Shown: positions 5,160-24,431 of the stretch, one piece after another
Layout: each line of letters begins with the position of its first letter
How positions within the stretch are numbered: position 1 is the first letter of the stretch
Assembly (NCBI GenBank): GCA_035602095.1
Contig: DATNMZ010000493.1
Location: 1 to 27,568 of the forward strand
Reading direction: 5' to 3'
Length of the DNA stretch: 27,568 nucleotides
DNA from: Thermoanaerobaculia bacterium
GTDB taxonomy: Bacteria > Acidobacteriota > Thermoanaerobaculia > UBA5066 > Gp7-AA6
The notes under the pieces: model-generated
Told to the model about the DNA's origin: nothing
The model's database searches: none
What the model saw: only the letters and a program-made list of their open reading frames with translations
Made by a program: the position numbers and the translations under genes

Positions 5160-6659
5160 CTACGCGGGCGCGGGCTCCGGAGCGCGGCGGGGCGCCTGGC
5201 CCGCGGAGAGCGCCCAGTAGAGCGTTCCGGACGCGAAAAAGCCGACGAACCAGCCGTAGGCGTAGAGCGGTTTCAGCACAGGAAAGACGAACCCGCCCCA
5301 CGCGAGGCCGCAACCGACGAGGGTCGCGAGCACGGCCCTCCAGTTCCATCCGCCGGCGTATCGGTAGATTCCGTGCGTCAGGTAGAGGTCCTCCAGCCGG
5401 AGGCGGGTGCGCCGCACGAGCCAGTAATCCGCGATGAGGACCCCCGCGATGGATCCGAGTCCTCCCGAGTAGCCGAGCAGCCAGACGAAGATGTAGCCCG
5501 AAGGGTCGGCGAGAAGTTTCCACGGCTGCAGCAGGATTCCGATGACGCCGGTGATGAGGCCGCCCGTTTTGAAGCGGATCCAGCGCGGGAAGGCGTTGGC
5601 AAAATCGTTCGCCGGAGAGACGACGTTCGCCGCGATGTTGACCGCGAGCGTCGCGACGACGACGGTGAACATCGAGATCGCAACCACGGCGGGCTGCGAG
5701 AACTTGCCGACGAGAACGACCGGGTCCCAGATCGCTTTGCCGTAAATGATGGCGGTGGCGCTCGTGATCAGAACCCCCATCGCGGCGAAGAGAGACATGG
5801 TCGTCGGAAGGGCGGCGATCTGTCCGACCATCTGGTCCCGCTGGCTGCGCCCGTAGCGGGTGAAATCGGGCATGTTCAAGGAGAGCGTGGCCCAGAAGCC
5901 GACCATCGCCGTCAGCGAGGGGACGAAGACCGGAAAGAACTCGCGGAAAGTGCGGAGAGAGCCGGGTTGGGCGAGAAGCGGGCCGAAGCCGTGCGCCCGC
6001 CGGACCGCCCAGACGAGGAGCGCGCCCGTCATCACGAGCACGAATGGAGCCGCCCAGTTCTCCACCTTACGGAGCAGGTCCATGCCGCGGTAGACGATGA
6101 GGATGTTCAGCGCCCAGAAGAAAAAGAAAGAGAGCCACTCCGCGCCCGTGTGTCCGGACCAGCCCGGCCCGAGCCGCGTCGTCCAGCGGGGATCCAGCGC
6201 GGAGAAGAGCGTGTTCAGTGCGGCGCCTCCGATCCAGCACTGAATGCCGAACCAGCCGCAGGCGACGAGAGCGCGCATGATCGCCGGCAGGTTCGACCCG
6301 AGCGTTCCGTAAGCGGCGCGAGCGAACACGGGAAATGGAATGCCGTAGCGCGTTCCCGGATGGGAGTTCAGGAGGATGGGGACGAGCACGATCGTGTTCC
6401 CGAGGAGGATCGTCAAGAGCGCCTGCCACCAGTTCATCCCCGCCGTCATCAACCCCGACGCCATGTAATAGGTCGGTATGCAGTGCGCCATGCTGATCCA
6501 GAGCGCCGCGTAGTTGTAAGTCGTCCAGGTGCGTCGCGAGACGGGCACCGGGAGGAGGTCGCGGTTGGCGAGCGGTGACGCTTCGATCCGAGTCGCGTCG
6601 ATCAACTCGACGCGGCCGTCCCCGTGGCGCTTCTCGTTGCCGTAAACGGTGGTGCGCAC
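5160..6659 (-). CDS. NCS1 family nucleobase:cation symporter (allantoin/uracil permease-like)
   Basis: About 12 hydrophobic segments; WISMAHCIPTY, GTRYGIPFPVFARAAYG, GWFGIQ, FWATLSLNMPDFTRY, NIAANVVSPANDF motifs; divergent from allB. Confidence 0.92.
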   Translation of the reverse strand: MRTTVYGNEKRHGDGRVELIDATRIEASPLANRDLLPVPVSRRTWTTYNYAALWISMAHCIPTYYMASGLMTAGMNWWQALLTILLGNTIVLVPILLNSHPGTRYGIPFPVFARAAYGTLGSNLPAIMRALVACGWFGIQCWIGGAALNTLFSALDPRWTTRLGPGWSGHTGAEWLSFFFFWALNILIVYRGMDLLRKVENWAAPFVLVMTGALLVWAVRRAHGFGPLLAQPGSLRTFREFFPVFVPSLTAMVGFWATLSLNMPDFTRYGRSQRDQMVGQIAALPTTMSLFAAMGVLITSATAIIYGKAIWDPVVLVGKFSQPAVVAISMFTVVVATLAVNIAANVVSPANDFANAFPRWIRFKTGGLITGVIGILLQPWKLLADPSGYIFVWLLGYSGGLGSIAGVLIADYWLVRRTRLRLEDLYLTHGIYRYAGGWNWRAVLATLVGCGLAWGGFVFPVLKPLYAYGWFVGFFASGTLYWALSAGQAPRRAPEPAPA

Positions 6660-10935: not shown

Positions 10936-12282
10936 CTACTTCCTCCTCGCCTTCAGGATCCGGAGGAAGGAACGCCCGCGGAGCTCGTCTACGGTCAGGC
11001 CGCTCTTTGCGACGGCCTCCTCCTCCGTGATCGCCCCGCAGCTCACGGCGCGGAGAAAGTAGTTCAAGAGTCCCTGGCCCGTCGCGGCGTCGTCGAAGAC
11101 CTCGCCGACGAGCGTCGCCTGTCCCGCCTTCTCCACGAAGTTGTTCAGCCTCGCCGAAGCGGCGGGGAGCCCCTCGAGGAAAAAAGCGTAGAGAGCGGCG
11201 TACCGCGTCGGCAGCTGCGCCGGATGCAGGTCCCACCCCTGGTAGATCCCGCCGACGAGCGAATGGCGGACGTGCTCGTAGTGGAGCTTCCAGGCGGCGT
11301 GCACCGTTTCGCGATTCTGCGCGAGCTCGCGCCGCGTCAGCGTTCGCTCGCCGGAATGGTGCGGCGGGATCGGAAGAACGTTCGTGGCGCCGTCGGAGAT
11401 CCACACGCCCGTGCCCGCGAGCGCGACCTGCATCGCCTCCCGAGCGAAGTCGCAGGCCGGATGAAGCATGTGCTGGTGCGCCGCCGTGATGTTCAAGGAG
11501 GCGGTGTAGTCGTAAATGCCGAAGTGCGCGGCCGAGCACCGTCCGCGCGCCGCGCCCACGAGGGCTCCAATCGCGATGGCGCCGCGCTCGTCGACGACCG
11601 ACTGGGGAGTCTCGACCATGATCTCCAGGCGGAGCGTCCCGGGTGGAATCGGGAGGGCCTTTTCCAGCGCTTCGAGGATGTCCGCCAGGGCCGAGACTTG
11701 GGCCGGCAAAGTCACCTTCGGAAGCGTCACGACGAAGTTGTCGGGGAGTCCGCCGGAATCCTCGACCAGCCGGGTGATGAACAGATCGAGGGTCCGGATT
11801 GTGCGCGACGCGAGCTCGTCGCCGAGCGACTTGATACGGATGCCGATCGACGCCGGGAGAGTTCCGGCCGCCTTTCCGGTCGCGACCTCGCGCGCCGCCG
11901 CCAGGGCGTGGCCGTCCTCCTCCGCGTCGGGGCGGTTGCCGTAGCCGTCTTCGAAATCGATGCGGTAGTCCTCGACCGGCTCCCGGCGGAGCTTCTCGGA
12001 GACCCGGGTCCAGACGAGGGGAGCGAGCGACGGCTCGATTCCCAGAACGCCGGCGAGGGCGTCGGGCGTCGGAGCAAATTCCTCCAGGAAGCGGAGAGCG
12101 AGAGCTCCGAGCCTCGGGGCGGTGTCCGACTGGAAGACCTGCGCACCTCCGTAGACCGTGTGGACGGGCTGTCGGCGCACGGATTCGCCGGGATACTTTC
12201 GCGCGAAGTCCGCGTTGGGCGCCGAAAGGCTCGCGCGGAAGCCCGCGGTCCGATCGGGGTCGATCGTCGTCCGAGGGTTCAT
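10936..12282 (-). CDS. Uncharacterised CitE / malyl-CoA lyase-like Mg-dependent TIM-barrel enzyme (DUF6986-like)
   Basis: Start ATG 12282 after SD GGAGGGAG (448 aa). QPVHTVYGGA, RIDFEDGYG, GIRIKS, VTLPKV, IMVETPQ, HFGIYDY, GWDLHPAQL map onto the CitE-family DxED / R / LPKV / E / FGxxD / HPxQ motifs. The DUF number is from memory. Confidence 0.8.
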   Translation of the reverse strand: MNPRTTIDPDRTAGFRASLSAPNADFARKYPGESVRRQPVHTVYGGAQVFQSDTAPRLGALALRFLEEFAPTPDALAGVLGIEPSLAPLVWTRVSEKLRREPVEDYRIDFEDGYGNRPDAEEDGHALAAAREVATGKAAGTLPASIGIRIKSLGDELASRTIRTLDLFITRLVEDSGGLPDNFVVTLPKVTLPAQVSALADILEALEKALPIPPGTLRLEIMVETPQSVVDERGAIAIGALVGAARGRCSAAHFGIYDYTASLNITAAHQHMLHPACDFAREAMQVALAGTGVWISDGATNVLPIPPHHSGERTLTRRELAQNRETVHAAWKLHYEHVRHSLVGGIYQGWDLHPAQLPTRYAALYAFFLEGLPAASARLNNFVEKAGQATLVGEVFDDAATGQGLLNYFLRAVSCGAITEEEAVAKSGLTVDELRGRSFLRILKARRK

Positions 12283-13100
12283 GCCGTCTCCCTCCAGAAC
12301 TGCTCCAGCAGATTGGCCGCGACTTCCCGGCGGTACCCGGCCGTCGAGCGCACGTCGTCGATGGGCTGGATCTCTTCCACGAGCGCGCTCCGCCCTGCCC
12401 GGATCGATCCGCGCGAGGCGAGCGCGGCCTCGGTCTTCGGAAGCCGGATCACGGTCGGCGCGACCGAGCCCAGCGCCACGCGCGGGCGCTCCGAGCGGAT
12501 CGCCGCCAGGACGACCTTCGAGATCGCCTGCGCCGCCCGGGTGCCGACCTTTCGGAACCACTGCCGGCCTTCCAGGCGGGGGATCTCGATCGCGACGATG
12601 AGCTCGTCCGGCCGCATCACGGATTGGCGGTAGCCGGTGTAGAAAGAGTCAAACGGTATGCGCCGCGTCGCTTCCGCGCTCCGGAGGACGACGACCGCCT
12701 CCGCGACGGCGAGAACGGGCAGCGTGTCGCCCGCCGGCGAGGCGTTCGCCACGTTGCCTCCGATCGTTCCCCGGTTCTGGATCTGCGCGCCGCCGATCTC
12801 CCGGGCCGCGGCGGCGAGGATGGGAAGGCGCTTCTCGACGAGCGGGGAGCGGAGGATGTCCCGGTAGGTGGCCGTCGCCCCGATCGAAAGCGCGCCCTCG
12901 CGAACCTTGATGCGGCGCAGCTCGGCGAGCGGGGAGAGATCGACGAATCGCGTCTGCCGGAGCGTCCCGAAATTCAGATGGACGTAGACGTCGGTACAGC
13001 CGGCGAGCGGAGTCAGGGGGCCGCCGTCGCGGAGCATGACGAGGGCTTCGCGGAGAGAGCGAGGCTCGAGGAGAGTCAGCGAGGAGATGGCCGTGCGCAT
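12279..13100 (-). CDS. Xanthine dehydrogenase family FAD-binding subunit (PucC/CoxM-like)
   Basis: LAGCTDV, IGGAQIQNRGTIGGNVANASPAGD, FRKVGTRAAQAISKV, IDDVRSTAGYR. Confidence 0.9.
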   Translation of the reverse strand: MRTAISSLTLLEPRSLREALVMLRDGGPLTPLAGCTDVYVHLNFGTLRQTRFVDLSPLAELRRIKVREGALSIGATATYRDILRSPLVEKRLPILAAAAREIGGAQIQNRGTIGGNVANASPAGDTLPVLAVAEAVVVLRSAEATRRIPFDSFYTGYRQSVMRPDELIVAIEIPRLEGRQWFRKVGTRAAQAISKVVLAAIRSERPRVALGSVAPTVIRLPKTEAALASRGSIRAGRSALVEEIQPIDDVRSTAGYRREVAANLLEQFWRETA

Positions 13101-13128
13101 GCCGCTCTGTCCTCGAGGCCCGCCGTTT

Positions 13129-13638
13129 TCATCGCCGCGCTCCCGCCGGCTCGAGCTTGCGAGCCGGGGCGTTTCTGCTCCGCCGCGAGGGCGCGCGCCG
13201 CTTTCGGGGCGCCCTCGCCGCCTTTCGGACCGCCCGGTAGATCCCCTCGTACCCGGTGCAGCGGCAGATGTTTCCGGCGAGCCCGATCCGAATTTCCTCC
13301 AGGCCCGAGTCGCGCGGCAACGCCGCGGCGGCGAGAATCATCCCGGGAGTGCAGATCCCGCACTGGGCTCCGCCTTCGGAGACGAACGCCTGCTGGAGCG
13401 CCGCCTTCCCCCTCAGACCTTCGATCGTCGTCACGCGGGCGCCCCGCACCTGCGCGAACGGGATGAGGCAGGAGTTCACCGGTTCGCCGTCCACGAGCAC
13501 GGTGCACGCCCCGCACTCGCCCTCCCCGCACCCTTCCTTGGTTCCCGTCAGGCCGCACTCTTCCCGCAGCACGTCCAGGAGACGCTTCATCGGGTGCGTC
13601 CGGACCTTGACCGGCCGCCCGTTCAACGAGAAGCGCAC
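13129..13638 (-). CDS. Xanthine dehydrogenase family 2x[2Fe-2S] subunit (PucE/CoxS-like)
   Basis: C-terminal 169 aa of track ORF 13129..15489 from GTG 13638: GTKEGCGEGECGACTV, NSC, QCGICTPG, GNICRCTGY. Overlaps the end of the large subunit. Confidence 0.9.
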   Translation of the reverse strand: MRFSLNGRPVKVRTHPMKRLLDVLREECGLTGTKEGCGEGECGACTVLVDGEPVNSCLIPFAQVRGARVTTIEGLRGKAALQQAFVSEGGAQCGICTPGMILAAAALPRDSGLEEIRIGLAGNICRCTGYEGIYRAVRKAARAPRKRRAPSRRSRNAPARKLEPAGARR

Positions 13639-15731
13639 GAAGCTTCCAGGATCCTCTCCGGCGTGGCCGGGATCCGGCGGATGTCGAGGCCCAGATGGCG
13701 GATCGCATTCACGACGGCCGGCGCGGGCCCGTCGATGGGCATTTCGCCGATCCCCTTGGCGCCGTGCGGGCCGTGCCGGTACGGGTTCTCGAGGATCACG
13801 GAATCGATCGGCGGAGTGTCGAGTGTCGTCGGAACCACGTAGTTGGTCATCTGCGCGTTCTCCATCCGCCCGTCGCGCAGAACGACTTCCTCGAGCAGGG
13901 CATAGCCAAGTCCTTGAGCCGTTCCCCCCTCGATCTGGCCGGCGGCGAGGACCGGGTGGATCGCCCGGCCGATCTCGCAGACGGCGGTCACGCGGACGGG
14001 CCGGACCTCGAAGGTGACGGGGTCCCGCTCGACTTCCACGACGTTGCAGCCCCATCCGTAGGCGCCGTAGGCGTCGCCCCGGTACGTCTCGTCGCTCCAT
14101 TCGAGCTCGCGCGGCTTTTCGTATTCGCGCGTCACCACGAGCGGTCCGTGGAGCTTGCGGTACCGGCGCGGGGACATCGTGCCGAGGCGCGCCTTCATTT
14201 CGAGCGCGCAGTTCTCGAGAATCTTTCCGACGACCATGCATGTCCGAGAGGCGACGGTCGGGCCGCTGTCGGGAACTCGCGCGGTGTCGGCCTCGGAGAC
14301 CTCCACGCGGTCGTACGGGATCCCGAGCGCGTCGGCCACGATCTGCGCATGGATCGTCCGCGTTCCCTGTCCGATCTCCGTGGACGCGACGAGAATGCGA
14401 GCGCCTTCGTCCGTCAGCTCGAGAGAGGCGCGCGAGGCGAGCTTCACCTCGCCCCCGCCCGTAAACCCCGAGCCGTGGAAGAAGAGGGACAGCCCGATCC
14501 CCCGATTCGTCCCGGCGAGGCTCTTCCGGAGGCGGCGAAAGCCGCTCCTCTTCACGGCCTCCCGGAGCACGGCCCGCGCGCTGCAGTCCTCTCCGAGCTT
14601 CTGTCCGGTGGCGGTGGTATCTCCGGGCTTGAACGCGTTGACTTCCCGCAGCCGCACGGGGTCCATTCCGAGGGTCTCCGCGATCCGCTCCATGTGGACT
14701 TCCGAAGCGAACTGCGTCTGCGGCGCTCCGAACCCCCGAAACGCGCCGTTCGGCGGGGTGTTCGTCCGAACGACCCGGCCGCGCACGCGGACGTGATCGC
14801 AACGGTACGGGCCCGTCGCGTGGAGCACGCCGCGCGACAGAACGACGGGAGAAAGCGTCACGTACGCCCCTCCGTCCATCCGCACGTCGATGTCCATCGC
14901 GACGATCTTTCCGTCGCGCCGGACGCCGGTGCGATGTCGGACGACCGCCGGATGCCTCTTCGTGGTGGCGACCATGTCTTCGACGCGGTCGTAGATCATC
15001 TTGACGGGCCGGTTGGCCTTCCACGCGAGGATCGCCGCGTGCCCGGCGAGGATCGACGGATATTCCTCCTTGCCCCCGAACCCGCCCCCCGTCTCGGTCT
15101 GGACGACGCGGACCTTCTGCGCGGGCAGCCCGAGCAGAGTGACGAGCGCCCGGTGAACGTAGTAGGGGCACTGGAGGGAGCCGTAGACGGTGATTCCGCC
15201 ATCCTCGGGGACCGCGATCACGCCGTTGGGCTCGATGTAGAGCTGCTCCTGGTGTCCGGTCCGATACTCCCCCTCGACGACGAGGTCCGCGAGGGAGAAG
15301 CCGCGGTCGAGAGAGCCCTTTTCGATCCGGATCTCCTTGAACACGCGCGGCGACTTCTCCGGGTCGAAAACGGGAGGCGTGGGCTCGTACTCGATCTCGG
15401 CGCGGGCCGCGAGAAGCGCTTCCCGGACCGGGTGGGCGACGAGCAGGATCGGCTCCGCGAAGTGACGCACGTGCCGTTCGACGAGACACGGCTGATCGTC
15501 TTCGATCAGGGCGACGACGTTTTTCCCGGGGATGTCTCGGAAATCGGCGACGACGTACCCCGAAGTGTCGAAGCCCGGGCGCAGGGATCGGATCTCTCCG
15601 CAGGGGATGGTCGAGCGGATCGTCGTCCCGTGCAGCATGCCGGGGAAGGAGAGATCGTCCACGTACCGGGCGGCGCCCGTGACCTTGGAGCGCCCTTCCT
15701 TGCGGGGGACGTTACGTCCGACGGACGGCAT
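13623..15731 (-). CDS. Xanthine dehydrogenase molybdopterin-binding subunit (PucD-like)
   Basis: KVTGAARY, GHQEQLYIE, GGGFGGKEE, AFRGFGAPQ, FHGSGFT, GQGT, GPTVASR, QIEGG, GAKGIGE. By eye the equivalents of bovine XDH Q767, E802, R880, F914, F1009 and E1261 are present. Confidence 0.88.
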   Translation of the reverse strand: MPSVGRNVPRKEGRSKVTGAARYVDDLSFPGMLHGTTIRSTIPCGEIRSLRPGFDTSGYVVADFRDIPGKNVVALIEDDQPCLVERHVRHFAEPILLVAHPVREALLAARAEIEYEPTPPVFDPEKSPRVFKEIRIEKGSLDRGFSLADLVVEGEYRTGHQEQLYIEPNGVIAVPEDGGITVYGSLQCPYYVHRALVTLLGLPAQKVRVVQTETGGGFGGKEEYPSILAGHAAILAWKANRPVKMIYDRVEDMVATTKRHPAVVRHRTGVRRDGKIVAMDIDVRMDGGAYVTLSPVVLSRGVLHATGPYRCDHVRVRGRVVRTNTPPNGAFRGFGAPQTQFASEVHMERIAETLGMDPVRLREVNAFKPGDTTATGQKLGEDCSARAVLREAVKRSGFRRLRKSLAGTNRGIGLSLFFHGSGFTGGGEVKLASRASLELTDEGARILVASTEIGQGTRTIHAQIVADALGIPYDRVEVSEADTARVPDSGPTVASRTCMVVGKILENCALEMKARLGTMSPRRYRKLHGPLVVTREYEKPRELEWSDETYRGDAYGAYGWGCNVVEVERDPVTFEVRPVRVTAVCEIGRAIHPVLAAGQIEGGTAQGLGYALLEEVVLRDGRMENAQMTNYVVPTTLDTPPIDSVILENPYRHGPHGAKGIGEMPIDGPAPAVVNAIRHLGLDIRRIPATPERILEASCASR

Positions 15732-15757: not shown

Positions 15758-17092
15758 TCACCGGGCTCCGGACGCGGCGAAGGATTCGCGGAGGATCGCG
15801 AGGGACTCCTGGATGTCCGGCGCGGTCACCGTCAGCGCGGGCGCGATGCGGAAGACGTTTCCGTAGAGCCCGCCCTTCCCGATCAGAAGCCCGCGCTGCC
15901 GCGCTTCCTCGAAAACGCGATTCGTCATCACCGGATCGGGCGTCCGGTCGCCTGCCGTCTCGTCGGAGACGAGCTCGATCGCCTGCATGAGTCCCATCCC
16001 GCGCACGTCGCCGATCGAGCGAGGGAAGCGCGCCTTCAGGTCCTCGAGCCCGGAGCGGAGCAATGCGCCCATGCGCGCCGCATTGCCGGGCAGGTCTTCT
16101 TCTTCGATGATCTGAAGAGTGGCGTTCGCCGCCGCGGTCGATACGGGGTTTCCTCCGAACGTCGAGATCGTGAGCGCCTTCAACGCCGACGCAATCTCCG
16201 GCGTGGCAATGGTGATCCCGAGAGGGAGCCCGTTTGCGATTCCTTTTGCCGCCGTCAGAATGTCGGGCTCGACGCCGTAGTGCTCGATGCCCCACATCTT
16301 TCCGCCCGTCCGGCCGAAGCCCGTCTGGACCTCATCGCAGATGAAGAGGCCGCCGAACTTCCGAATGATTCCGACGGCGATCTCGAAGTACTCGAGGGGA
16401 GGCGTGATGAATCCGCCGACTCCCTGGATCGGCTCGGCGAGGAACCCGGCGATGCGGCCCGTCGTCGTCGTTCGGATGAGCTCCTCGATGTCCTTCGCGC
16501 AGGCGACCCCGCACGACGGGTAGGTCAGGTGAAGCGGGCACCGATAGCAGTACGGCGACACCGCGTGCTTCACGCCGGCGATCTGGGAGGGAAGCGCGCG
16601 CCAGGTGGAGTGGCCCGTTAGCGACTGCGCGAGCGTCGAGCGGCCGGAATAGCCGTGGCGCAGCGCGATGATCTCCGTCGAGCCGGTCGCGAGCTCGGCC
16701 ATCATGACGCCGGTCTCGTCGGCCTCGGTGCCGGAGGCGGTGAAACAGGTCTGCTTCAGATTTCCCGGCGTGAGGCGCGCGAGCCGCTCGGCGAGCTCGA
16801 CGACGGGCAGCGTCGGGTACAGCGTCGAAACGTGCGAGAGCCGGTCGAGTTGCGCGCGCACGGCCGCGTTGACGCGGTCGTCGGCATGACCGATCGAGAC
16901 CGTCAGGATCCCGCCGAAAAAGTCGAGATATTCGTTTCCATCGGCGTCCCGGATCCGGAGGCCCTTGCCCTCGGTCAGGACGATCGGCTCCTTGTAGTAC
17001 TGGAGAGTCGCGGGAAAGAGAAACTCCTTGTGTTTCTCGCGGACCGAGCGCGTCAGCTCCGACGTCGGCGCCTGGGTCTTGGTGGTGCTCAT
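15758..17092 (-). CDS. Class III PLP aminotransferase, AGXT2/PYD4-like (probable beta-alanine / beta-aminoisobutyrate aminotransferase)
   Basis: YLDFFGGILTVSIGH, AEPIQGVGG, FICDEVQTGFGRTG, AKGIANG (PLP Lys), STFGGNP; SD GGAGGAG; sits between dihydropyrimidinase and xdh. Confidence 0.8.
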   Translation of the reverse strand: MSTTKTQAPTSELTRSVREKHKEFLFPATLQYYKEPIVLTEGKGLRIRDADGNEYLDFFGGILTVSIGHADDRVNAAVRAQLDRLSHVSTLYPTLPVVELAERLARLTPGNLKQTCFTASGTEADETGVMMAELATGSTEIIALRHGYSGRSTLAQSLTGHSTWRALPSQIAGVKHAVSPYCYRCPLHLTYPSCGVACAKDIEELIRTTTTGRIAGFLAEPIQGVGGFITPPLEYFEIAVGIIRKFGGLFICDEVQTGFGRTGGKMWGIEHYGVEPDILTAAKGIANGLPLGITIATPEIASALKALTISTFGGNPVSTAAANATLQIIEEEDLPGNAARMGALLRSGLEDLKARFPRSIGDVRGMGLMQAIELVSDETAGDRTPDPVMTNRVFEEARQRGLLIGKGGLYGNVFRIAPALTVTAPDIQESLAILRESFAASGAR

Positions 17093-17108: not shown

Positions 17109-18488
17109 TTACGATCGGGGACTGCGTTTCAAGAACGAGCCGGCTCCGGCCCGTCCGGTGAATTTGCCGTTTTCGACGATCACCCGGCCGCGCGAAAGCA
17201 CCGTCTCCGCCGCTCCGGTGACCGACCGGCCTTCGTACGGGTTGTAGTCCACCTTCATGTGGAGCGTCCGGGCGGAGAGAGTCACTTTTTTCTCCGGGTC
17301 GAAGATGACGAGATCGGCGTCCGAGCCCGGGGCCACCGTGCCCTTGCGCGGAAAGAGGCCGAAGATCTTCGCAGGTGCGGTGGACGTCAGCTCCACGAAC
17401 CGGTGGATGGAGATCCGGCCGGTGCGCACGCCGCCGTCCCAGACGAGGCTCATGCGGGTCTCGATGCCGGGCGCTCCGTTGGGGATCTTCGAGAAATCGT
17501 CGGCTCCGAGCTCCTTCTGGCCGCGCATACAGAACGGGCAATGGTCGGTCGAAATGGCCTGCAGGTCGTTTCCGGCGAGGCCGCGCCAGAGGCGCTCTTC
17601 GTTGCCGGCCGCGCGCAGGGGCGGGCTCATGACGTACTTTGCGCCCGCGAACCCCGGCTCCTCGTAGTTCGCGTAGGAGAGAAAGAGGTACTGGGGGCAG
17701 GTCTCCGCGTACGCGGGGAGGCCGCGGTCCCGCGCCTCGGTCACCATTTCGAGCGCTTCCGCCGCCGAGAGGTGCACGATGTAGATCGGCACGCCGGCGA
17801 TCTCCGCGAGCGCGATCGCCCGGTGGGTCGCCTCCGCTTCGGCGCGCGCCGGCCGCGTCAGGGCGTGGTATTTCGGCGCCCGCTCTCCGCGGGCGAGAGC
17901 CTTCTGGACGAGCACGTCGATCACGCCGCCATTCTCGGCGTGCATGCAGATCGTGCCGCCGTTCTCCCGCGTTCGAAGCAGCGCCCGGAAGATCGAGGCG
18001 TCGTCGAGCATGAAGACGCCCGGGTACGCCATGAAAAGCTTGAAAGAGGAGATGCCCTCGCGGACCAGGGCGTCCATCTCGTCCTCGACGCTGCCGTCGA
18101 GCTCGGTGACGATCATGTGAAACCCGTAGTCGATCGCCGCCTTGCCCTCCGCCTTCTTCATCCAGGCGTCCCGGGCGTGGCGGAGCGTCTGCCCGCGGTA
18201 CTGGATCGCGAAATCGACGACGGCGGTCGTTCCCCCGTGCGCCGCGGCGATCGTGCCGGACTCGAAGTCATCCGCCGACGTCGTTCCTCCGAAAGGCATG
18301 TCGAGGTGTGTATGGACGTCGATCCCGCCGGGGAGCACGTACCGCCCCGCGGCGTCGATGGTGCGGTCGGCCTCCATCGAGAGCGAGGTGCCGATGCACG
18401 CGATCTTTTCGTTTTCGATGAGGACGTCCCCCCGGTACAGGTCCGAGGCGGTCGCGATGGTCCCGTTGCGGATGAGCGTCTTCGTCAT
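17109..18488 (-). CDS. hydA: Dihydropyrimidinase / D-hydantoinase
   Basis: PGGIDVHTHLDMPFGGT, SFKLFMAY, MHAENG, YIVHLS, AETCPQYL, YVMSPPLR, STDHCPF, IPNGAPGIE. Confidence 0.95.
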   Translation of the reverse strand: MTKTLIRNGTIATASDLYRGDVLIENEKIACIGTSLSMEADRTIDAAGRYVLPGGIDVHTHLDMPFGGTTSADDFESGTIAAAHGGTTAVVDFAIQYRGQTLRHARDAWMKKAEGKAAIDYGFHMIVTELDGSVEDEMDALVREGISSFKLFMAYPGVFMLDDASIFRALLRTRENGGTICMHAENGGVIDVLVQKALARGERAPKYHALTRPARAEAEATHRAIALAEIAGVPIYIVHLSAAEALEMVTEARDRGLPAYAETCPQYLFLSYANYEEPGFAGAKYVMSPPLRAAGNEERLWRGLAGNDLQAISTDHCPFCMRGQKELGADDFSKIPNGAPGIETRMSLVWDGGVRTGRISIHRFVELTSTAPAKIFGLFPRKGTVAPGSDADLVIFDPEKKVTLSARTLHMKVDYNPYEGRSVTGAAETVLSRGRVIVENGKFTGRAGAGSFLKRSPRS

Positions 18489-18493
18489 TGCTC

Positions 18494-19363
18494 TTACACG
18501 AGCTGGGCCATCGCCTCGTACGTTTCGGGCCGCCGGTCCCGGTAGAACTGCCAGATGCGCCGGACTTCCTCGATCTGGTCGAGGTCCATCTCGGCCGTGA
18601 TCAGCTCATCTTTGTCTTCCGACCCGACCGCCAGGAAATTGCCTCGCGGATCGACGAAATAGGAAGAGCCGTAGAACCTGCCGATGTTCCAGGGCGCCTC
18701 CGTCCCGACCCGGTTGCTGCAGGCCATGAAGTATCCGTTCGCGACGGCGTGCGCGGGCTGTTCGAGCTTCCAGAGATACTGCGAAAGCCCGGCGACCGTG
18801 GCCGACGGATTGAAGACGATTTCCGCGCCGTTCAACCCCAGGAGCCGCGCCCCCTCGGGGAAGTGCCGGTCGTAGCAGATGTACACGCCAACTTTCGCGT
18901 AGCGGGTCGCAAAGACGGGGTAGCCGAGGTTGCCCGGCTTGAAGAAATACTTTTCCCAGAAGCCCGACGTGTGCGGAATGTGGTTCTTGCGGTACTTGCC
19001 GAGGTACGAGCCGTCCGCGTCGTACACGGCCGCGGTGTTGTAGTAGACGCCCGCCTGTTCGCGCTCGTAGACGGGGATCACCATCGCCATGCGGTACTTT
19101 TTCGCGTACTGCGCGAGCCGCTGCGTGGTCGGGCCCGGAACGGGCTCCGCCATGTCGTACCAGCGCGCGTCCTGGCTGGGGCAGAAGTACGGGCCGTTGA
19201 AGACCTCCTGGAGCCCCAGAACCTGGACGCCCCTCTTCCCGGCTTCTTCGATGAACGGAATGTGCGCCTCGATCGCCGCCTCGGAGATCTTCTCGACGGG
19301 CGCCGAAGCGTCGGAGATCGGATTCGCGCACTGGATCAGCCCGCCGAGAAGCTTACGAGGCAT
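18494..19363 (-). CDS. Nitrilase-superfamily beta-ureidopropionase (beta-alanine synthase, PydC-like)
   Basis: Glu-Lys-Cys triad in LQEVFNGPYFC, YRKNHIP, ICYDRHFPE. Position next to dihydropyrimidinase favours ureidopropionase over N-carbamoylputrescine amidase, which typically has CWDQWFPE. Confidence 0.85.
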   Translation of the reverse strand: MPRKLLGGLIQCANPISDASAPVEKISEAAIEAHIPFIEEAGKRGVQVLGLQEVFNGPYFCPSQDARWYDMAEPVPGPTTQRLAQYAKKYRMAMVIPVYEREQAGVYYNTAAVYDADGSYLGKYRKNHIPHTSGFWEKYFFKPGNLGYPVFATRYAKVGVYICYDRHFPEGARLLGLNGAEIVFNPSATVAGLSQYLWKLEQPAHAVANGYFMACSNRVGTEAPWNIGRFYGSSYFVDPRGNFLAVGSEDKDELITAEMDLDQIEEVRRIWQFYRDRRPETYEAMAQLV

Positions 19364-19393: not shown

Positions 19394-20899
19394 TCAGAAC
19401 CATCGCGAGATGACCACCTTCTTGTCGGTGTAGAACTCGAAGGCGTCCCTCCCGTGCACTTTGAGGTCTCCGAAAAAGCTGTCCTTCGCGCCGCCGAACG
19501 GGAAGTAGGCCATCGGCGCCGCCACACCGATGTTCACTCCCACCATCGAAGCGGAGGCGTGCCGGGCGAACTCGCGCGCCGCCTTTCCGCTCGACGTGAA
19601 GATGGACGTGGCGTTCGCGTTCGGGTGCGCATGCATCAGCGCGATCGCTTCGTCGAGTGTCTTCACCGGCGTGATCGAAGCGACCGGTCCGAAGATCTCT
19701 TCGCGGCCGATCGCCATTTCCGGCGAAACGTCGTCGAAGATCGTGGGGCCGAGGAAGAACCCCTGCTCGCGCCCGGGGACGTTCACGCGCCGGCCATCGA
19801 CGACGAGCTTCGCTCCCTCGGCGACGCCTTTCTCGATGTATCCGACGACCTTCTCGCGGTGGCGGCCGCTGATGACCGGGCCCATGTCGACGCCGGGCTC
19901 TGCGCCATCGCCGACCTTGAGCGCCCGCACCGACTCCGCGAGCCTGTCGCGGGCCGTCGCGTGCGCCTCGCCGACCGGAACGAGGACGCTTCCGGCGAGG
20001 CAGCGCTCGCCGGCGCAACCGTAGAAGGACTCGGAGATGACCGGCACGGCGCGGTCCCAGTTGGCGTCCGGCATCACCACGACGAAGTTCTTCGCTCCCC
20101 CGAGGGCCTGAACGCGTTTTCCGGCGTGCGTCGCCCGGCGGTAGACCGCGCGGGCCACGGGCGTCGATCCGACGAAGGACACGGCGGCGATTCCGGGATG
20201 GTCGCAGATCGCTTCGACGACTTCGCGGCCGCCGTTGACCAGGTTCACGACCCCCGCGGGCAGCCCGCACTTCTCGAGCAGCTCGATCATCCGCTTCTGC
20301 GAAAGGGGCACCTGCTCCGAGGGCTTGACGATGAAGACGTTGCCCGTCGCGATCGCGAACGGGATGAACCACAGCGGCACCATCGCGGGAAAGTTGAAAG
20401 GCGCGATGGCGGCGCAGACGCCGACCGGCTGCCGGATGACCTGGCAGTCGATTCCGGAAGAGATGTTCTCGAGCCCGTATCCCATCGAGAGGGACGGCGT
20501 TCCGCACGCGACTTCTACGCACTCGATTCCGCGCCGGACGCTGCCGCGGGACTCGTCGAGCGTCTTGCCATGCTCGGTCGTGACGATCCGCGCGAGCTCC
20601 TCGAAATGCTCCTCGAGCTCGACCTTGAACCGGAAGAGCACCTGGGCGCGGGTCACGGCCGGCGTGTCCCGCCAGGCGGGAAACGCCTGGCGCGCGGCGG
20701 CGACGGCCTGGTCCACCTCGGCGGCCGAGGAGAGAGGCGCGCGGGCGATCACCTCCCCGCGCGCCGGGTTGGTCACGTCCTGGAATTTGGCGGCGCTCGA
20801 GGCGACCCAGCGGCCGCCGATGAAGTTCGGAAGAACGGGCGCGCCGCCGGAAGCGCCGGAACGGGCGGACCTGCCTTCCGAAATCGCGGTACCGGACAT
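19394..20899 (-). CDS. mmsA: CoA-acylating (methyl)malonate-semialdehyde dehydrogenase
   Basis: ATG 20899 after strong SD AAAGGAGG; APFNFPAMVPLW, KPSEQVP, SFVGSTPVA, LGGAKNF, GCAGERCLA, EEIFGPV, FPFGGAKDSFFGD. Confidence 0.93.
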   Translation of the reverse strand: MSGTAISEGRSARSGASGGAPVLPNFIGGRWVASSAAKFQDVTNPARGEVIARAPLSSAAEVDQAVAAARQAFPAWRDTPAVTRAQVLFRFKVELEEHFEELARIVTTEHGKTLDESRGSVRRGIECVEVACGTPSLSMGYGLENISSGIDCQVIRQPVGVCAAIAPFNFPAMVPLWFIPFAIATGNVFIVKPSEQVPLSQKRMIELLEKCGLPAGVVNLVNGGREVVEAICDHPGIAAVSFVGSTPVARAVYRRATHAGKRVQALGGAKNFVVVMPDANWDRAVPVISESFYGCAGERCLAGSVLVPVGEAHATARDRLAESVRALKVGDGAEPGVDMGPVISGRHREKVVGYIEKGVAEGAKLVVDGRRVNVPGREQGFFLGPTIFDDVSPEMAIGREEIFGPVASITPVKTLDEAIALMHAHPNANATSIFTSSGKAAREFARHASASMVGVNIGVAAPMAYFPFGGAKDSFFGDLKVHGRDAFEFYTDKKVVISRWF

Positions 20900-20938
20900 C
20901 GCGACCTCCTTTGGGGGAATGGGAAGAATATCGCGGTC

Positions 20939-21026
20939 CACGTCGCTGCGCGCTGCGCGGGGGATCTGGCTTCGCCACCGGCCACGTCGCTACGCCCTGC
21001 GCGGGGGATCTGGCTTCGCCACCGGC
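20939..21026. repeat. Tandem duplication of a 44-bp unit
   Basis: 20939-20982 and 20983-21026: CACGTCGCT(G/A)CGC(G/C)CTGCGCGGGGGATCTGGCTTCGCCACCGGC, two mismatches. Confidence 0.9.
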
Positions 21027-21145
21027 GAGCGGCTCGCGCGGATGCGCGCTCGACCGCTCGCCTGATCCCCCGCTCCGCGCTCCGCTCCCGCACCGCAAGG
21101 CTCCTCCCTCCCTTTGGTCGGGAGACTCCTCGCGGTGCGAGCGGA
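21001..21145. other. Double-hairpin structured element (REP/MITE-like or ncRNA) in the mmsA-preA intergenic region
   Basis: GCGGGGGATC (21001-10) pairs with GATCCCCCGC (21064-73) and encloses GGCGAGCGG/CCGCTCGCC (21024-32/21054-62) and CGCGC-GGAT-GCGCG. A second hairpin TCCGCTC..CGCACCGC (21081-96) / GCGGTGCGAGCGGA (21132-45) encloses CTCCC-TTTGGTC-GGGAG. Confidence 0.55.
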
Positions 21146-21312
21146 TGGACCTGCGTCGCGGAATACCGGCGTCGTGGTTCCCGTCGGGGCGTAGGGTGGG
21201 GGCTTGTGCCGTCCCGCTTCCGTCCGGCCGTCACAGGACACGCGTCCGCGCGAGCCGCCCGCCGTGCGCCGCACGCAGATTCCACCGTAAGCGAAGCCGA
21301 CGGAAAGCGACG

Positions 21313-21318
21313 TACAAT
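21313..21318 (+). promoter_or_regulatory. Candidate -10 element (TACAAT) for preA-like gene
   Basis: TACAAT ends 24 nt before ATG 21343, with SD GGAGG in between; no convincing -35. Confidence 0.4.
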
Positions 21319-21342
21319 TTAGGGTTTCCACCCGGAGGTGCC

Positions 21343-22482
21343 ATGGCCGCCGATCTCTCGGTCACGTTCACAGGGATCCGGTTCGACAACCCCTTTTTGC
21401 TCTCCTCCGCGCCGCCGACCGAATCGGAGGCCAACATCCTCCGGGCGTTCGAAGCGGGATGGGGCGGAGTGGTCACCAAGACGATCGGGCTTCACCCCGT
21501 GGTCAATGTCCGCGGCCCCAAGACGATGTTCCTTCGCGCGGATGTCGAGAATCCCGCCCTCTCCATGCGCAAGAGGCCGGGGACGGCCCTGCACTCCTCC
21601 TGGAACTGGGAGCTCATCTCCGACAAGACGCTCGACTGGTGGGCTCCACGGATCGGCCGGATCAAGAAGGCGTACCCGAACAAGGTCCTCGTCGCATCGA
21701 TCATGGCCGGGTCGGGCAGCGATTCGGAGCTCGCCCACTGGCAGACCCTCGCCCGCGTCTGCCAGGACGAGGGGGCGGACGCCCTCGAGCTGAACCTCTC
21801 CTGCCCGCACATGGACCGCCAGGACATGGGATCGAACATCGGAAAAGACCGCGATCTCATCTCCGTCGTCGCACAGGTCGTTCGAGAAGTCGCGCGGGTG
21901 CCCATCTGGGCGAAATTGACGCCGTCCACGACGGACATCGTCCTCGAGGCGCGCGCGGCCTTCCTGGGCGGCGCGGACGCGATCTCCTCCTCGAACACGT
22001 TCACCTCTCTCCCGCTCGTCGATCCTGAGACCCTGGAATTCGAGGTGAACGTCGACGGCCTGGTCTCGACCGGCGGGTTGGGCGGTCCGGCGATCCTGCC
22101 GCTCTCGCTCGCCAAGATGGCGCAGATGACGCAGGCCCTTCCGGAGCGGAGCTTCTCCGGAATCGGCGGAATTGCCACGTTCGCGCACGCTCTGAACTAT
22201 TTCCTCCTCGGGTGCGGAACCGTCCAGGTCTGCACGGCGGCGATGCTCGATCGGGCCGTCGGCCCCAACGTGATCCGCAGCCTCGTCCGGGACATGTCCG
22301 AGTTCCTGGAGAAGAGGAAGGACCGCGGCTGGAAGAGCCTCGAGGACTTCCGCGGGCTCTCCCGGAATCGGGTCGTGGCGCAGTCGCAGATCGCGAGGCC
22401 GGACGCTGCGGGTTACCACGGAGGGCGTGAGGCGGCGGAAGGTTACGCGGATCCGGCGGAAGCGCACGCCTCGGTGGAGTGA
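21343..22482 (+). CDS. preA: Dihydropyrimidine dehydrogenase FMN subunit (PreA/PYD1-like), lacking the C-terminal ferredoxin domain
   Basis: ATG after GGAGG (379 aa). FDNPFLLSSAPP, GWGGVVTKT, NWELISD, ELNLSCPH (catalytic Cys), WAKLTP, SNT, SGIGGI, VQVCTAAM. No CxxCxxC motif anywhere. Confidence 0.82.
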   Translation: MAADLSVTFTGIRFDNPFLLSSAPPTESEANILRAFEAGWGGVVTKTIGLHPVVNVRGPKTMFLRADVENPALSMRKRPGTALHSSWNWELISDKTLDWWAPRIGRIKKAYPNKVLVASIMAGSGSDSELAHWQTLARVCQDEGADALELNLSCPHMDRQDMGSNIGKDRDLISVVAQVVREVARVPIWAKLTPSTTDIVLEARAAFLGGADAISSSNTFTSLPLVDPETLEFEVNVDGLVSTGGLGGPAILPLSLAKMAQMTQALPERSFSGIGGIATFAHALNYFLLGCGTVQVCTAAMLDRAVGPNVIRSLVRDMSEFLEKRKDRGWKSLEDFRGLSRNRVVAQSQIARPDAAGYHGGREAAEGYADPAEAHASVE

Positions 22483-24431
22483 GAGAGAGCCCTTCCCGGC
22501 CGTTGGCCGAGCTCCTTCGGAGCGAGCGGGAGGCCCGCGCCGCCGCGGAGGCCGCAGAGCGGCGCGCGACCTTTCTCGCTCGGGCGAGCGAGGCCCTGGC
22601 GTCGTCGCTCGACTGCGAGACCACGCTCCGGGCCGTGGCGGGCCTGGCCGTGCCGGTCATCGCGGACTGGTGCTTCATCGACATGTTCCGCCGGGGAACG
22701 TTTCGTCGCGTCGCCGTGAGTCGCGCACCGGCCAGCCACGCGGCGCTCGCCCGCCGCCTCGAGGAGGAGCACTTCCTCGACGCGGACGCCTCCCTCGGTC
22801 CTCCTCAGGTGCTGCGGAGCGGAGTCTCGGAGCTCTACCCGGCGGTCACGGATGAATTTCTCCGGGAGGTCGCGCGCACGCAGGAGGCCTACGAGTTGCT
22901 GCGGGAAATGGACATCACCTCCGTGATGTCGGTCGCCATCCGGGATGCGGAAGCGATCGTTGGAATCATCACGTTCGTGAGCTCGGAATCGCGGAGACGT
23001 TTCGCAACCGAAGACCTGCGGCTGGCGGAGGACCTGGCCGTTCGGGCCGGCGCCGCAATGGAGAACGCGCGTCTGTTCGAGCTGGTCCACGACGAGCGGG
23101 CCGCGGCGCAACGGCACGCTCGGCGCTCCGCATATCTCGCGAGGGCGAGCGAGATCCTCGCCTCCTCGCTCGACCACAAGACCACCCTCTCGAGCGTCGC
23201 CCGCCTGGCCGTGCCGGACGTCGCCGATTGGTGCCTCGTCGACATGGTCGAGTTGGATGGCGGCTTGAAGACGATCGCCCTTTACCACTCGGATCCGGCG
23301 AAGACGGCAATCGCCCGGGAAATCGGGCGGCGGTTTCCGTACGACCCGGCGCAGCCCTGCTTCGCTCCCCACGTCGTGGCAACGGGAGAGCCCGAGCTCG
23401 CGACGCGGATTCCGGACGAAATTCTTCGCGCGGGAACTCGGAACGAGGCGCACTATCGCGCGCTCGCCGAGCTCGGATTCCGTTCCTACATGTGCGTGCC
23501 GCTCGTGGTGCGGGGGCGCGTCGCCGGCGCGATCACCTTCGCATCGGCGGAATCCGGACGGAGCTACGAGCCGGAGGATCTGTCGCTCGCGGAGGCCCTC
23601 GCCTATCGGGCGAGCCTCGCGATCGACAACGCGCGGCTCTACAGCGAAGCGCAGGACGCAATTCGGGTGCGGGATGAATTCCTGTCCATCGCCTCTCACG
23701 AGCTGAAAACGCCCGTCACCACGCTCCAGCTCCAGATTCAGAGCCTTCGGCGCCGGCTCGATTCCGGGCGCATGGAGGCGGGCGATCCGGGGTTGAGTAA
23801 GCGGCTCGCGATCTCCGAGCGGCAGATCGAGCGCCTCACGCATCTGATCAACAACCTCCTCGACATCTCCCGCATCACCGCGGGACGCATGGATCTCCGT
23901 ATCGAGGAGGTGGACTTCGCCGGCGTCGTGCGCGAGACAGTCGCACGGCTCGAAGACAGCCTTGCGCGCGCCGGGTGCACGCTGACGCTCGAAGTCTCCG
24001 ACCCGCAGAGAGGCGAGTGGGACAAGTTGAGGCTCGAGCAGATCGTCACGAATCTGATGTCCAATGCGATGAAGTACGGCGCGGGGCGCCCCATCGAAGT
24101 TTCCCTCTCCGGTACGCCGGATTCGGTCCGTCTCGAGGTCGCCGATTTTGGGATCGGCATCGCGCCCGAGAGCCAATCGCGCATCTTCGGGCGATTCGAA
24201 AGAGCGGTCTCCGAACGAAACTACGGCGGCCTCGGCCTGGGACTCTGGATCGTGCGACAGATCGTGGACGCTCTGGCAGGCACGGTCACCGTCCAGAGCG
24301 CGGCCGGAAAGGGATCCCGCTTCGCCGTCGAGCTTCCGAGGCGGAGAGCGCAGCCCGGGAAAGCTGCCGCCGAGCCTTCGATCTCCGCGGCCCCGGAGAC
24401 ACCGGAATCCGGGAACGGTCTCCCGGCGTAA
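22479..24431 (+). CDS. Cytoplasmic sensor histidine kinase with two GAF domains
   Basis: Duplicated GAF starts (ASEALASSLD...ADWC; ASEILASSLD...ADWC); H-box SIASHELKTP, N-box NLMSNAMKY, DFGIGI, IFGRFER, GLGLGL. No TM segment; GTGA overlap with the preA stop. Confidence 0.92.
   Translation: MRESPSRPLAELLRSEREARAAAEAAERRATFLARASEALASSLDCETTLRAVAGLAVPVIADWCFIDMFRRGTFRRVAVSRAPASHAALARRLEEEHFLDADASLGPPQVLRSGVSELYPAVTDEFLREVARTQEAYELLREMDITSVMSVAIRDAEAIVGIITFVSSESRRRFATEDLRLAEDLAVRAGAAMENARLFELVHDERAAAQRHARRSAYLARASEILASSLDHKTTLSSVARLAVPDVADWCLVDMVELDGGLKTIALYHSDPAKTAIAREIGRRFPYDPAQPCFAPHVVATGEPELATRIPDEILRAGTRNEAHYRALAELGFRSYMCVPLVVRGRVAGAITFASAESGRSYEPEDLSLAEALAYRASLAIDNARLYSEAQDAIRVRDEFLSIASHELKTPVTTLQLQIQSLRRRLDSGRMEAGDPGLSKRLAISERQIERLTHLINNLLDISRITAGRMDLRIEEVDFAGVVRETVARLEDSLARAGCTLTLEVSDPQRGEWDKLRLEQIVTNLMSNAMKYGAGRPIEVSLSGTPDSVRLEVADFGIGIAPESQSRIFGRFERAVSERNYGGLGLGLWIVRQIVDALAGTVTVQSAAGKGSRFAVELPRRRAQPGKAAAEPSISAAPETPESGNGLPA

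What the first reader, a model, noticed from the sequence alone, without database searches (positions are those of the whole stretch)
21343..22482. Stand-alone PreA without Fe-S domain or PreT: plant PYD1-like enzyme with no obvious electron donor
Seen: 379 aa FMN barrel with DPD motifs (ELISD, NLSCPH) ends about 60 aa after VQVCTAAM with a clean stop, no ferredoxin Cys motifs, and no preT/GltD-like gene in the window. Established: bacterial PreA normally carries a C-terminal 2x[4Fe-4S] domain and needs FAD/NAD(P)H-binding PreT. Plant PYD1 has only the FMN barrel and its reductant is unresolved; related fungal proteins act as dihydrouracil oxidases. Inference: either an unknown electron partner exists (free ferredoxin/flavodoxin, or the co-clustered Xdh FAD/Fe-S subunits passing electrons from xanthine oxidation to uracil reduction), or the enzyme works oxidatively.
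Basis: partly seen in the sequence, partly recalled or inferred. Interest (0 to 1): 0.65.

Follow-up and report, generated by a model that had tools for sequence, protein, structure and literature searches.

The report
Iron-sulfur-free bacterial uracil reductase family
This gene encodes the first enzyme of uracil/thymine breakdown in a stripped-down form that has lost the usual iron-sulfur "wire" and has no partner subunit. It belongs to a conserved family found in at least five bacterial phyla, so its electron source is a real open question, and one that can be tested in cultured bacteria.

Summary
It has no CxxCxxCxxxC motif in any frame of the window, and no PreT/GltD-type domain was found anywhere in the assembly.

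It is not a recent truncation. It belongs to a well-supported clade of about 365-385-aa proteins in Acidobacteriota, Gemmatimonadota, Chloroflexota, Rhodothermales and Rhodobacteraceae/SAR116. All members lack Fe-S. All share remodelled active-site loops and a conserved C-terminal motif, SQ[IV]RR[PK]..Y[HNQ]GG[YH].

Outside Alphaproteobacteria the gene usually sits in or beside reductive pyrimidine-catabolism (Pyd) operons. No redox partner gene recurs across 62 loci.

A separate archaeal (Thermoplasmatota) Fe-S-less form sits in a complete Pyd operon. The relationship to plant PYD1 is unresolved.

Xanthine dehydrogenase adjacency is confined to this lineage, so Xdh coupling is unlikely to be general.

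Best reading: a uracil/thymine reductase fed at its FMN by a general cellular reductant. Direct NAD(P)H is my leading guess, with housekeeping ferredoxin or flavodoxin next.

The donor is inferred, not shown. The scan had already noted this family on other DNA.

The parts
21343..22482 (+). Fe-S-free DPD-type FMN barrel (short PydA/PreA-like uracil/thymine reductase), 379 aa
22399..22449 (+). Codons for the conserved C-terminal tail motif (residues about 353-369: RP..Y-H-G-G..E-G-Y-A). It replaces the ferredoxin domain and is disordered in the AF2 model.
21334..21338 (+). GGAGG ribosome-binding site, ending 4 nt before the ATG
20942..21342 (.). Divergent intergenic region between the pyd operon and the short-DPD gene. 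Its first ~88 nt hold two ~44-nt direct repeats. TACAAT lies at 21313-21318.
   Evidence: read directly
19394..20941 (-). CoA-acylating (methyl)malonate-semialdehyde dehydrogenase
   Evidence: TIGR01722, 582 bits > 448 cut-off
18494..19363 (-). CN-hydrolase, beta-ureidopropionase type
17109..18488 (-). Dihydropyrimidinase
   Evidence: TIGR02033, 628 bits > 393 cut-off
15758..17092 (-). Class III aminotransferase (beta-alanine/beta-aminoisobutyrate step)
5160..6659 (-). NCS1 nucleobase:cation symporter. It is the commonest neighbour of the family in other phyla.
22479..24431 (+). GAF-HisKA-HATPase sensor kinase. Its start overlaps the short-DPD stop codon by 4 nt. The arrangement is conserved in this genus and in g7.
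12279..15731 (-). Three-subunit Xdh-family molybdenum hydroxylase in the same transcription unit as the pyd genes. Listed as context; not supported as the partner.

Best explanation
The gene encodes the uracil/thymine reductase (the PydA step) of the reductive pyrimidine-catabolism pathway. It is a distinct, cross-phylum bacterial form consisting only of the FMN/pyrimidine barrel. Shown: a DPD-type active site, no Fe-S domain, no PreT-type protein found in this genus, conserved Pyd-operon context, and no recurrent partner gene. Inferred: uracil is reduced by FMNH2, with Cys154 (the counterpart of pig Cys671) as the proton donor, as in DPD. The FMN is re-reduced not through an iron-sulfur wire but directly by a general cellular reductant. 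My leading guess is NAD(P)H in a ping-pong reaction at the same site, as in dihydrouridine synthases and class 1A DHODH. The second guess is a housekeeping ferredoxin or flavodoxin docking at the flavin edge. The family-specific remodelling of the loops over the barrel mouth, and the conserved Y-x-G-G-[YH] tail that replaces the ferredoxin domain, are the likely adaptations for this new route of electron entry.
For: The DPD catalytic and FMN residues are conserved (K46, N88, E90, N151, S153, C154, K191, N218, T219), and these columns are invariant or nearly so in a 47-sequence alignment. The AF2 model has pLDDT 90. Its best structural match is pig DPD domain IV, followed by DHODH 1B and 1A. 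More than 100 close clusters are all 378-396 aa. Orthologs in Gemmatimonadota, Chloroflexota, Rhodothermales, Vicinamibacterales, Rhodobacteraceae and SAR116 are all Fe-S-less and carry the same tail motif. The clade has 100/99 support. It shares indels around the active site, including a one-residue-shorter catalytic loop SCPH-MDRxDMG. Pyd genes flank it: of 54 species-level loci, 28 have DHPase, 28 NCS1, 19 MSDH, 18 bUP and 15 AT3. In Gemmatimonadota the operon MSDH-short-AT3-DHPase-NCS1-bUP is contiguous, with no room for another gene. Clustering all neighbour ORFs of 62 loci found no other recurrent family. PF14691 is absent from G000 and from 12 of 14 same-genus genomes, including assemblies 96%, 94%, 93% and 92% complete. 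One 100%-complete genome, G013, is unpublished. No fusion to a redox domain exists among close kin. An independent Thermoplasmatota Fe-S-less form sits in a complete Pyd operon, again without a redox partner gene.
Against: No biochemical data exist for any member. Recombinant rice PYD1, which has the same architecture, was inactive with NADH or NADPH (PMC9930899). If the two groups share an origin, which is not excluded (AU p = 0.18), that weighs against direct NAD(P)H. The canonical DPD pyrimidine pocket is small and closed by a lid, and no nucleotide-binding motif is evident. A conserved but disordered tail is also what a docking peptide for a protein partner would look like. G000 is only 89% complete. 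Tateyamaria and Loktanella carry the short form alongside a canonical preT-preA cluster and away from Pyd genes, so in Alphaproteobacteria its role may differ.
Confidence: 0.55

Rival explanations
1. The barrel needs a dedicated or borrowed protein partner encoded elsewhere, for example PyrK of class 1B DHODH, an NfnB/GltD-like flavoprotein where one is present, or an unknown Fe-S flavoprotein. The conserved tail would recruit this partner, which would deliver electrons to the FMN edge.
For: Every characterised DPD and PydAc receives its electrons through Fe-S clusters (PMC7332683). Rice PYD1 alone was inactive (PMC9930899). The tail is conserved but predicted disordered. A pyrK-pyrD pair is present in G000, and PyrK is found in 39 of 41 relatives. 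Ferredoxin-domain proteins exist in the genome.
Against: No partner gene recurs next to the family in 62 loci from at least five phyla. No fusion to a redox domain was found. No PreT/GltD-type domain occurs in this genus. PyrK is universal among the relatives, so its presence does not discriminate.
Confidence: 0.22
2. One reading: the co-transcribed Xdh FAD/2Fe-2S subunits pass electrons from xanthine oxidation to the short DPD, linking purine oxidation to pyrimidine reduction.
For: The xdh genes lie inside the pyd transcription unit here and in same-genus genomes. Xdh orthologs (at least 74% identical) occur in most genomes of this family-level group that carry the short DPD. Other readers of this scan noted the same adjacency in other genomes.
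Against: None of 54 species-level loci has an Xdh subunit within its flank. Genus g12 has only about 52%-identical paralogs on other contigs, and G018 (85% complete) has the short DPD with no Xdh match. The operons in Gemmatimonadota, Chloroflexota, Rhodothermales and Thermoplasmatota lack xdh. A merged nucleobase-catabolism cluster explains the adjacency.
Confidence: 0.05
3. The enzyme runs oxidatively, as a dihydropyrimidine oxidase or dehydrogenase using O2, fumarate or a quinone, or it acts on a different dihydropyrimidine-like substrate.
For: Single-FMN barrels of this superfamily include oxidases and fumarate-linked enzymes (PMC9585004). In Tateyamaria and Loktanella the short form coexists with canonical PreAT and is not in a Pyd cluster.
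Against: In Acidobacteriota, Gemmatimonadota, Chloroflexota and Rhodothermales it is the only DPD-type gene, and it sits in operons whose next enzyme consumes dihydropyrimidines. Oxidising dihydrouracil back to uracil would oppose that flux. It scores far below the class 1A DHODH model (60 bits against a cut-off of 301). It has no N-terminal quinone-site extension.
Confidence: 0.08

Closest known systems
Plant/algal PYD1 (DHPD), plastid dihydropyrimidine dehydrogenase
   Same: An FMN/pyrimidine barrel only, with no Fe-S, FAD or NAD(P)H domains. The DPD active site is conserved. The electron donor is unknown (PMC9930899).
   Different: Only 35-38% identical. PYD1 keeps the canonical catalytic loop SCPHGMPER and lacks the bacterial clade's indels and Y-x-G-G tail. 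It has its own tail and a transit peptide. The trees disagree on a sister relationship: apart, together at SH-aLRT 89. The AU test does not reject a single clade (p = 0.18).
Bacterial PreA/PydA2 with PreT/PydA1 (E. coli PreAT, Pseudomonas and Brevibacillus PydA)
   Same: The catalytic domain is homologous (about 40% identical), with the same residues and the same pathway context.
   Different: This protein lacks the C-terminal 2x[4Fe-4S] domain and the PreT subunit. It scores below the NCBIfam PreA cut-off. Public annotations nevertheless name these proteins 'NAD-dependent ... subunit PreA'.
Clostridial ferredoxin-dependent PydAc (PMC7332683)
   Same: A DPD variant that has lost the FAD/NAD(P)H module, sits in Pyd clusters, and uses a general cellular reductant.
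   Different: PydAc keeps both ferredoxin domains as the conduit. This family has none.
Thermoplasmatota 346-aa Fe-S-less PreA-like protein (P0231/P0272)
   Same: A barrel-only protein inside a full Pyd operon with no partner gene.
   Different: It is a separate lineage, nested among Fe-S-bearing PreAs (95/97), and lacks the bacterial clade's signature tail.
Dihydrouridine synthases (Dus) and class 1A DHODH / fungal dihydrouracil oxidase
   Same: Single-FMN TIM barrels of the same superfamily. They reduce or oxidise the pyrimidine C5-C6 bond by a ping-pong reaction at one site, with a Cys acid/base. This is the proposed working analogy.
   Different: They are distant in sequence: Dus E = 0.005, and class 1A DHODH 60 bits against a cut-off of 301. 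This protein is not a member of either family.

Membership tests
DPD/PreA catalytic (FMN-pyrimidine) domain clade | DHO_dh TIM barrel with the best sequence and structure match to DPD domain IV | tested here: met
   PF01180 E = 1.6e-26. Pig DPD E = 2.4e-51. Foldseek's top hits are all pig DPD, with TM 0.80 normalised to the query.
DPD/PreA catalytic (FMN-pyrimidine) domain clade | Pyrimidine/FMN site residues (pig K574, N609, E611, N668, S670, C671, K709, N736, T737; residue roles recalled from the pig structure papers) | tested here: met
   The counterparts K46, N88, E90, N151, S153, C154, K191, N218 and T219 are conserved.
Bacterial PreA (NCBIfam NF006183 equivalog) | C-terminal 2x[4Fe-4S] ferredoxin domain | tested here: not met
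   No CxxCxxCxxxC in the protein or in any frame of the window. The profile is matched only over positions 2-329 of 422, at 303 bits against a cut-off of 335.
Bacterial PreA (NCBIfam NF006183 equivalog) | PreT/PydA1 partner (Fer4_20 plus Pyr_redox_2) encoded adjacent or elsewhere | tested here: not met
   PF14691 is absent from G000 (89% complete) and from 12 of 14 same-genus genomes. The two exceptions, G012 and G002, give only a partial and a weak match that were not examined further. Absence from incomplete MAGs is not proof.
Plant PYD1 | Barrel-only architecture | tested here: met
Plant PYD1 | Placement inside or sister to the PYD1 clade | tested here: inconclusive
   Separate, with an unsupported backbone. 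Together at SH-aLRT 89. AU p = 0.18 for a single clade.
Plant PYD1 | PYD1-type C-terminal tail and N-terminal transit peptide | tested here: not met
   The tails differ, and there is no N-terminal extension.
Class 1A DHODH / dihydrouracil oxidase | Membership of the Ura1/PyrDa family | tested here: not met
   NF002702 scores 60 bits against a cut-off of 301. DHODA structures rank below DPD and DHODB.
Class 1B DHODH PyrD | PyrD-B equivalog with an adjacent pyrK | tested here: not met
   NF005574 scores 133 bits against a cut-off of 269. The genome's real pyrK-pyrD pair is on contig C527.
Cross-phylum short-DPD clade (defined here) | No Fe-S; catalytic loop SCPH-MDRxDMG; HSSWNWELISD hairpin insert; C-terminal SQ[IV]RR[PK]..Y[HNQ]GG[YH] | tested here: met

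The most novel reading that the evidence does not exclude
The cross-phylum bacterial short-DPD clade and plant PYD1 descend from one Fe-S-free ancestor and share a self-sufficient way of reducing the FMN, by direct NAD(P)H or ferredoxin with no wire and no partner. Cultured bacteria such as Frigidibacter sp. MR17.14 could then settle the long-open question of how plants reduce uracil. DPD chemistry would not intrinsically need four Fe-S clusters.
Probability: 0.25. Interest if true: 0.75.

Novelty: new variant of a known kind. Interest (0 to 1): 0.6.

Why it matters
DPD is the textbook case of a flavoenzyme that wires two flavins together through four [4Fe-4S] clusters. A widespread bacterial clade, plus an independent archaeal lineage, does the same pathway step with the FMN barrel alone. 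That points to a simpler and probably more oxygen-tolerant, iron-sparing way to feed electrons into uracil reduction.

The same puzzle has been open for plant PYD1 since at least 2009, and recombinant rice enzyme was still inactive in 2023 (PMC9930899). Members of this family occur in cultured Rhodobacteraceae, so the question can be tested directly.

Public annotation calls these proteins 'NAD-dependent dihydropyrimidine dehydrogenase subunit PreA'. That name asserts a cofactor and a partner that the genomes do not support.

Tried and rejected
- **Complex prediction.** P0001 + own-genome PyrK + FMN + 2Fe-2S scored 0.01 against a mark of 0.32. The tool returned no verdict, so this is not used as evidence either way.
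- **Longer relatives.** The hits that lack Fe-S motifs (P0259, P0234, P0214 and others) are fragments of ordinary fused DPDs or chimeric gene calls.
- **Longer forms of the family.** Only three single-contig NCS1-barrel fusions turned up, probably merged calls of adjacent genes. None is fused to a redox domain.
- **Neighbour clustering.** Across 62 loci, apart from the Pyd genes, most recurrent clusters were shadow ORFs of the high-GC genes. A cytidine-deaminase-like gene occurs in 6 loci. No small Cys-rich or ferredoxin-like neighbour recurs, which was a lead from another reader.
- **Ferredoxin-tail hits in G000.** These are NuoI, a membrane Fe-S protein and a four-cluster polyferredoxin. None resembles a split-off PreA tail in its context.
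- **'Independent loss from plants'.** I first read this from the quick tree. I withdrew it after wider sampling and the AU test.
- **Literature.** Searches found no paper on bacterial Fe-S-less DPD in the held library.

Full report
**1. Observation**

The ORF 21343-22482(+) translates to 379 aa. A GGAGG box lies at 21334-21338. Pfam sees only DHO_dh. NCBIfam's PreA equivalog matches profile positions 2-329 of 422 at 303 bits, below its cut-off of 335, so the ferredoxin part is missing.

Pig DPD residues 531-820 align at E = 2.4e-51. The lysines that hold FMN, the Asn/Glu/Thr that hold the pyrimidine, and the catalytic Cys in NLSCPH are all conserved. These columns are invariant or nearly so in a 47-sequence alignment.

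No CxxCxxCxxxC motif exists in any frame of the window. The next gene overlaps the stop codon by 4 nt. An AF2 model (pLDDT 90) is a TIM barrel whose best PDB matches are pig DPD, then DHODH 1B and 1A. Residues 356-379 are disordered.

**2. Surroundings**

The window is the whole contig C493 of a 2.73-Mb, 89%-complete MAG with 68% GC. Named homologs place it in Acidobacteriota.

Divergent from the gene lies one minus-strand operon:
- methylmalonate-semialdehyde dehydrogenase
- beta-ureidopropionase-type CN hydrolase
- dihydropyrimidinase
- class III aminotransferase
- a three-subunit Xdh-family hydroxylase
- DUF6986

Further along are HIU hydrolase, OHCU decarboxylase, allantoicase, allantoinase and an NCS1 permease. 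So every step of the Pyd pathway is present, and this barrel is the only candidate for step one. The genome's only other DHO_dh gene is a class 1B pyrD next to pyrK on another contig.

**3. A conserved family, not a truncation**

More than 100 90%-identity clusters at 80-98% identity are all 378-396 aa. In an exhaustive search, full-length relatives then drop to at most 44% identity, and most of those carry two Cys motifs.

A species-level genome scan finds Fe-S-less orthologs at 52-88% identity in:
- Vicinamibacterales and Thermoanaerobaculia
- Gemmatimonadota
- Chloroflexota
- Rhodothermales
- cultured Rhodobacteraceae (Tateyamaria sp. syn59, Loktanella sp. D2R18, Frigidibacter sp. MR17.14)
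- SAR116

They form one clade with 100/99 support. They share indels around the barrel mouth:
- a roughly 12-aa hairpin insert ending in HSSWNWELISD
- a 4-aa insert after SIMAG
- a catalytic loop one residue shorter (SCPH-MDRxDMG)
- an insert after CTAAM

They also share the tail motif SQ[IV]RR[PK]..Y[HNQ]GG[YH], which sits where the ferredoxin domain begins in canonical PreA.

**4. No PreT and no recurrent partner**

PF14691 is absent from G000 and from 12 of 14 same-genus genomes, all of which carry the short gene. This includes assemblies 96%, 94%, 93% and 92% complete. The 100%-complete G013 is unpublished, and the claim does not depend on it. In other genera the Fer4_20 hits lie beside PyrK-like domains in long frames, an NfnAB-like arrangement, and are unlinked to the short gene.

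Of 54 species-level loci, 28 have dihydropyrimidinase, 28 NCS1, 19 MSDH, 18 beta-ureidopropionase and 15 the aminotransferase. None has Xdh. In Gemmatimonadota the operon MSDH-short-AT3-DHPase-NCS1-bUP is contiguous.

Clustering every ORF around 62 loci yielded no further recurrent family apart from shadow ORFs and an occasional cytidine-deaminase-like gene. Close kin have no fusions to redox domains.

**5. Other Fe-S-less lineages**

A 346-aa Thermoplasmatota protein sits inside an operon of AT3, Aldedh, barrel, CN hydrolase, NCS1 and two amidohydrolases. It is nested among Fe-S-bearing PreAs (95/97), so it represents an independent loss.

Plant and algal PYD1 form their own 100%-supported clade. 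Their position relative to the bacterial clade changes with sampling:
- apart, on an unsupported backbone
- together at SH-aLRT 89

An AU test does not reject a single clade (p = 0.18). PYD1 keeps the canonical loops. Rice PYD1 was inactive with NAD(P)H, and its reductant remains unknown (PMC9930899).

**6.

*Xdh coupling.* Adjacency holds in this genus and in g7-like kin. The synteny seen in L026 rests on the unpublished G013. L027 (G007) shows the pyd-side arrangement as far as its contig reaches, and L029 (G014) shows only the kinase side. Their Xdh orthologs lie on other contigs. Adjacency is not seen in g12, in G019's operon, or in any of the 54 other species.

*Oxidative direction.* This would oppose the operon's flux. 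The fungal oxidases belong to the class 1A DHODH family (PMC9585004), to which this protein does not belong.

*Dihydroorotate specificity.* Unlikely, given the DPD-type site and the separate pyrK-pyrD pair.

*A twist.* Tateyamaria and Loktanella carry both a canonical preT-preA-DHPase cluster and a solitary short gene. Frigidibacter has only the short one, plus dihydropyrimidinases elsewhere.

**7. Mechanism**

Shown: a DPD-type uracil/FMN site, no wire, no dedicated partner gene, and Pyd-operon context.

Inferred: FMNH2 reduces uracil or thymine with Cys154 as the acid. The FMN is re-reduced directly by a common reductant. I favour NAD(P)H ping-pong at the remodelled barrel mouth, by analogy with Dus enzymes and class 1A DHODH (my own knowledge of those families). 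A housekeeping ferredoxin or flavodoxin is next, with PydAc as precedent for ferredoxin dependence (PMC7332683).

I estimate that it is the Pyd-pathway reductase at about 0.75. I estimate that no dedicated partner is needed at about 0.55. Within that, direct NAD(P)H is about 0.3.

**8. Novelty and caveats**

No paper in the held library describes bacterial Fe-S-less DPDs. This scan had already flagged the family in other genomes, and one follow-up reached a similar reading.

Caveats:
- The assemblies are MAGs, so absence is 'not found'.
- Several statements rest on quick trees. The backbone of the careful tree is unresolved.
- Nothing here measures activity.

Noticed in passing
window:10936-12561(-): DUF6986, a malate-synthase/HpcH-like TIM barrel, closes the pyd-xdh operon. 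Pyrimidine breakdown yields acetyl-CoA (through MSDH) and purine breakdown yields glyoxylate, so it could be a malate-synthase-like enzyme joining the two pathways.
   Followed up: no
window:20942-21030: Two ~44-nt direct repeats (GTCGCT.CGC.CTGCGCGGGGGATCTGGCTTCGCCACCGGC) lie immediately upstream of the MSDH start, in the divergent promoter region. They may be an operator.
   Followed up: no
window:22479-24431(+) vs L027:6264-9281(-): The sensor kinase after the short DPD is 650 aa here but about 1005 aa, with an N-terminal CHASE3 domain, in same-genus relatives. The window's copy lacks that sensor module.
   Followed up: partly
window:12279-15731(-): All three Xdh-family subunits score well below every NCBIfam xanthine-dehydrogenase equivalog cut-off (for example pucD, 469 bits against 784). 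Substrate specificity is therefore not established. No uricase was recognised in the window, although HIU hydrolase and OHCU decarboxylase are present.
   Followed up: partly
window:9970-10707(-): A 245-aa ORF with no Pfam match lies between the ureide genes and DUF6986. A homolog was seen in one related locus (L118).
   Followed up: no
G017:C6:13272-14340 and G021:C2:283657-284746: In two relatives the short-DPD gene is split, with in-frame TGA stops. These may be pseudogenes or assembly errors.
   Followed up: no
P0415-P0417: Three single-contig metagenome proteins fuse an NCS1 permease to the short barrel. They are probably merged calls of adjacent genes.
   Followed up: no
L032:4905-11110: P0229 is a long-branch 369-aa Fe-S-less barrel that groups with the bacterial clade. 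It lies after nucleoside hydrolase, cytidine deaminase, PRTase and PNP genes on a 3.7-Mb contig, which is a salvage context rather than a Pyd one. It shares with plant PYD1 an insert before the SGIGG motif.
   Followed up: partly
P0332: One algal PYD1 homolog is annotated 'psbA translation factor' in its source record.
   Followed up: no
window:1859-3304(+): SthA, the soluble Si-specific NAD(P)+ transhydrogenase (628 bits against a cut-off of 465), lies 18 kb upstream. No link to the cluster was found.
   Followed up: no
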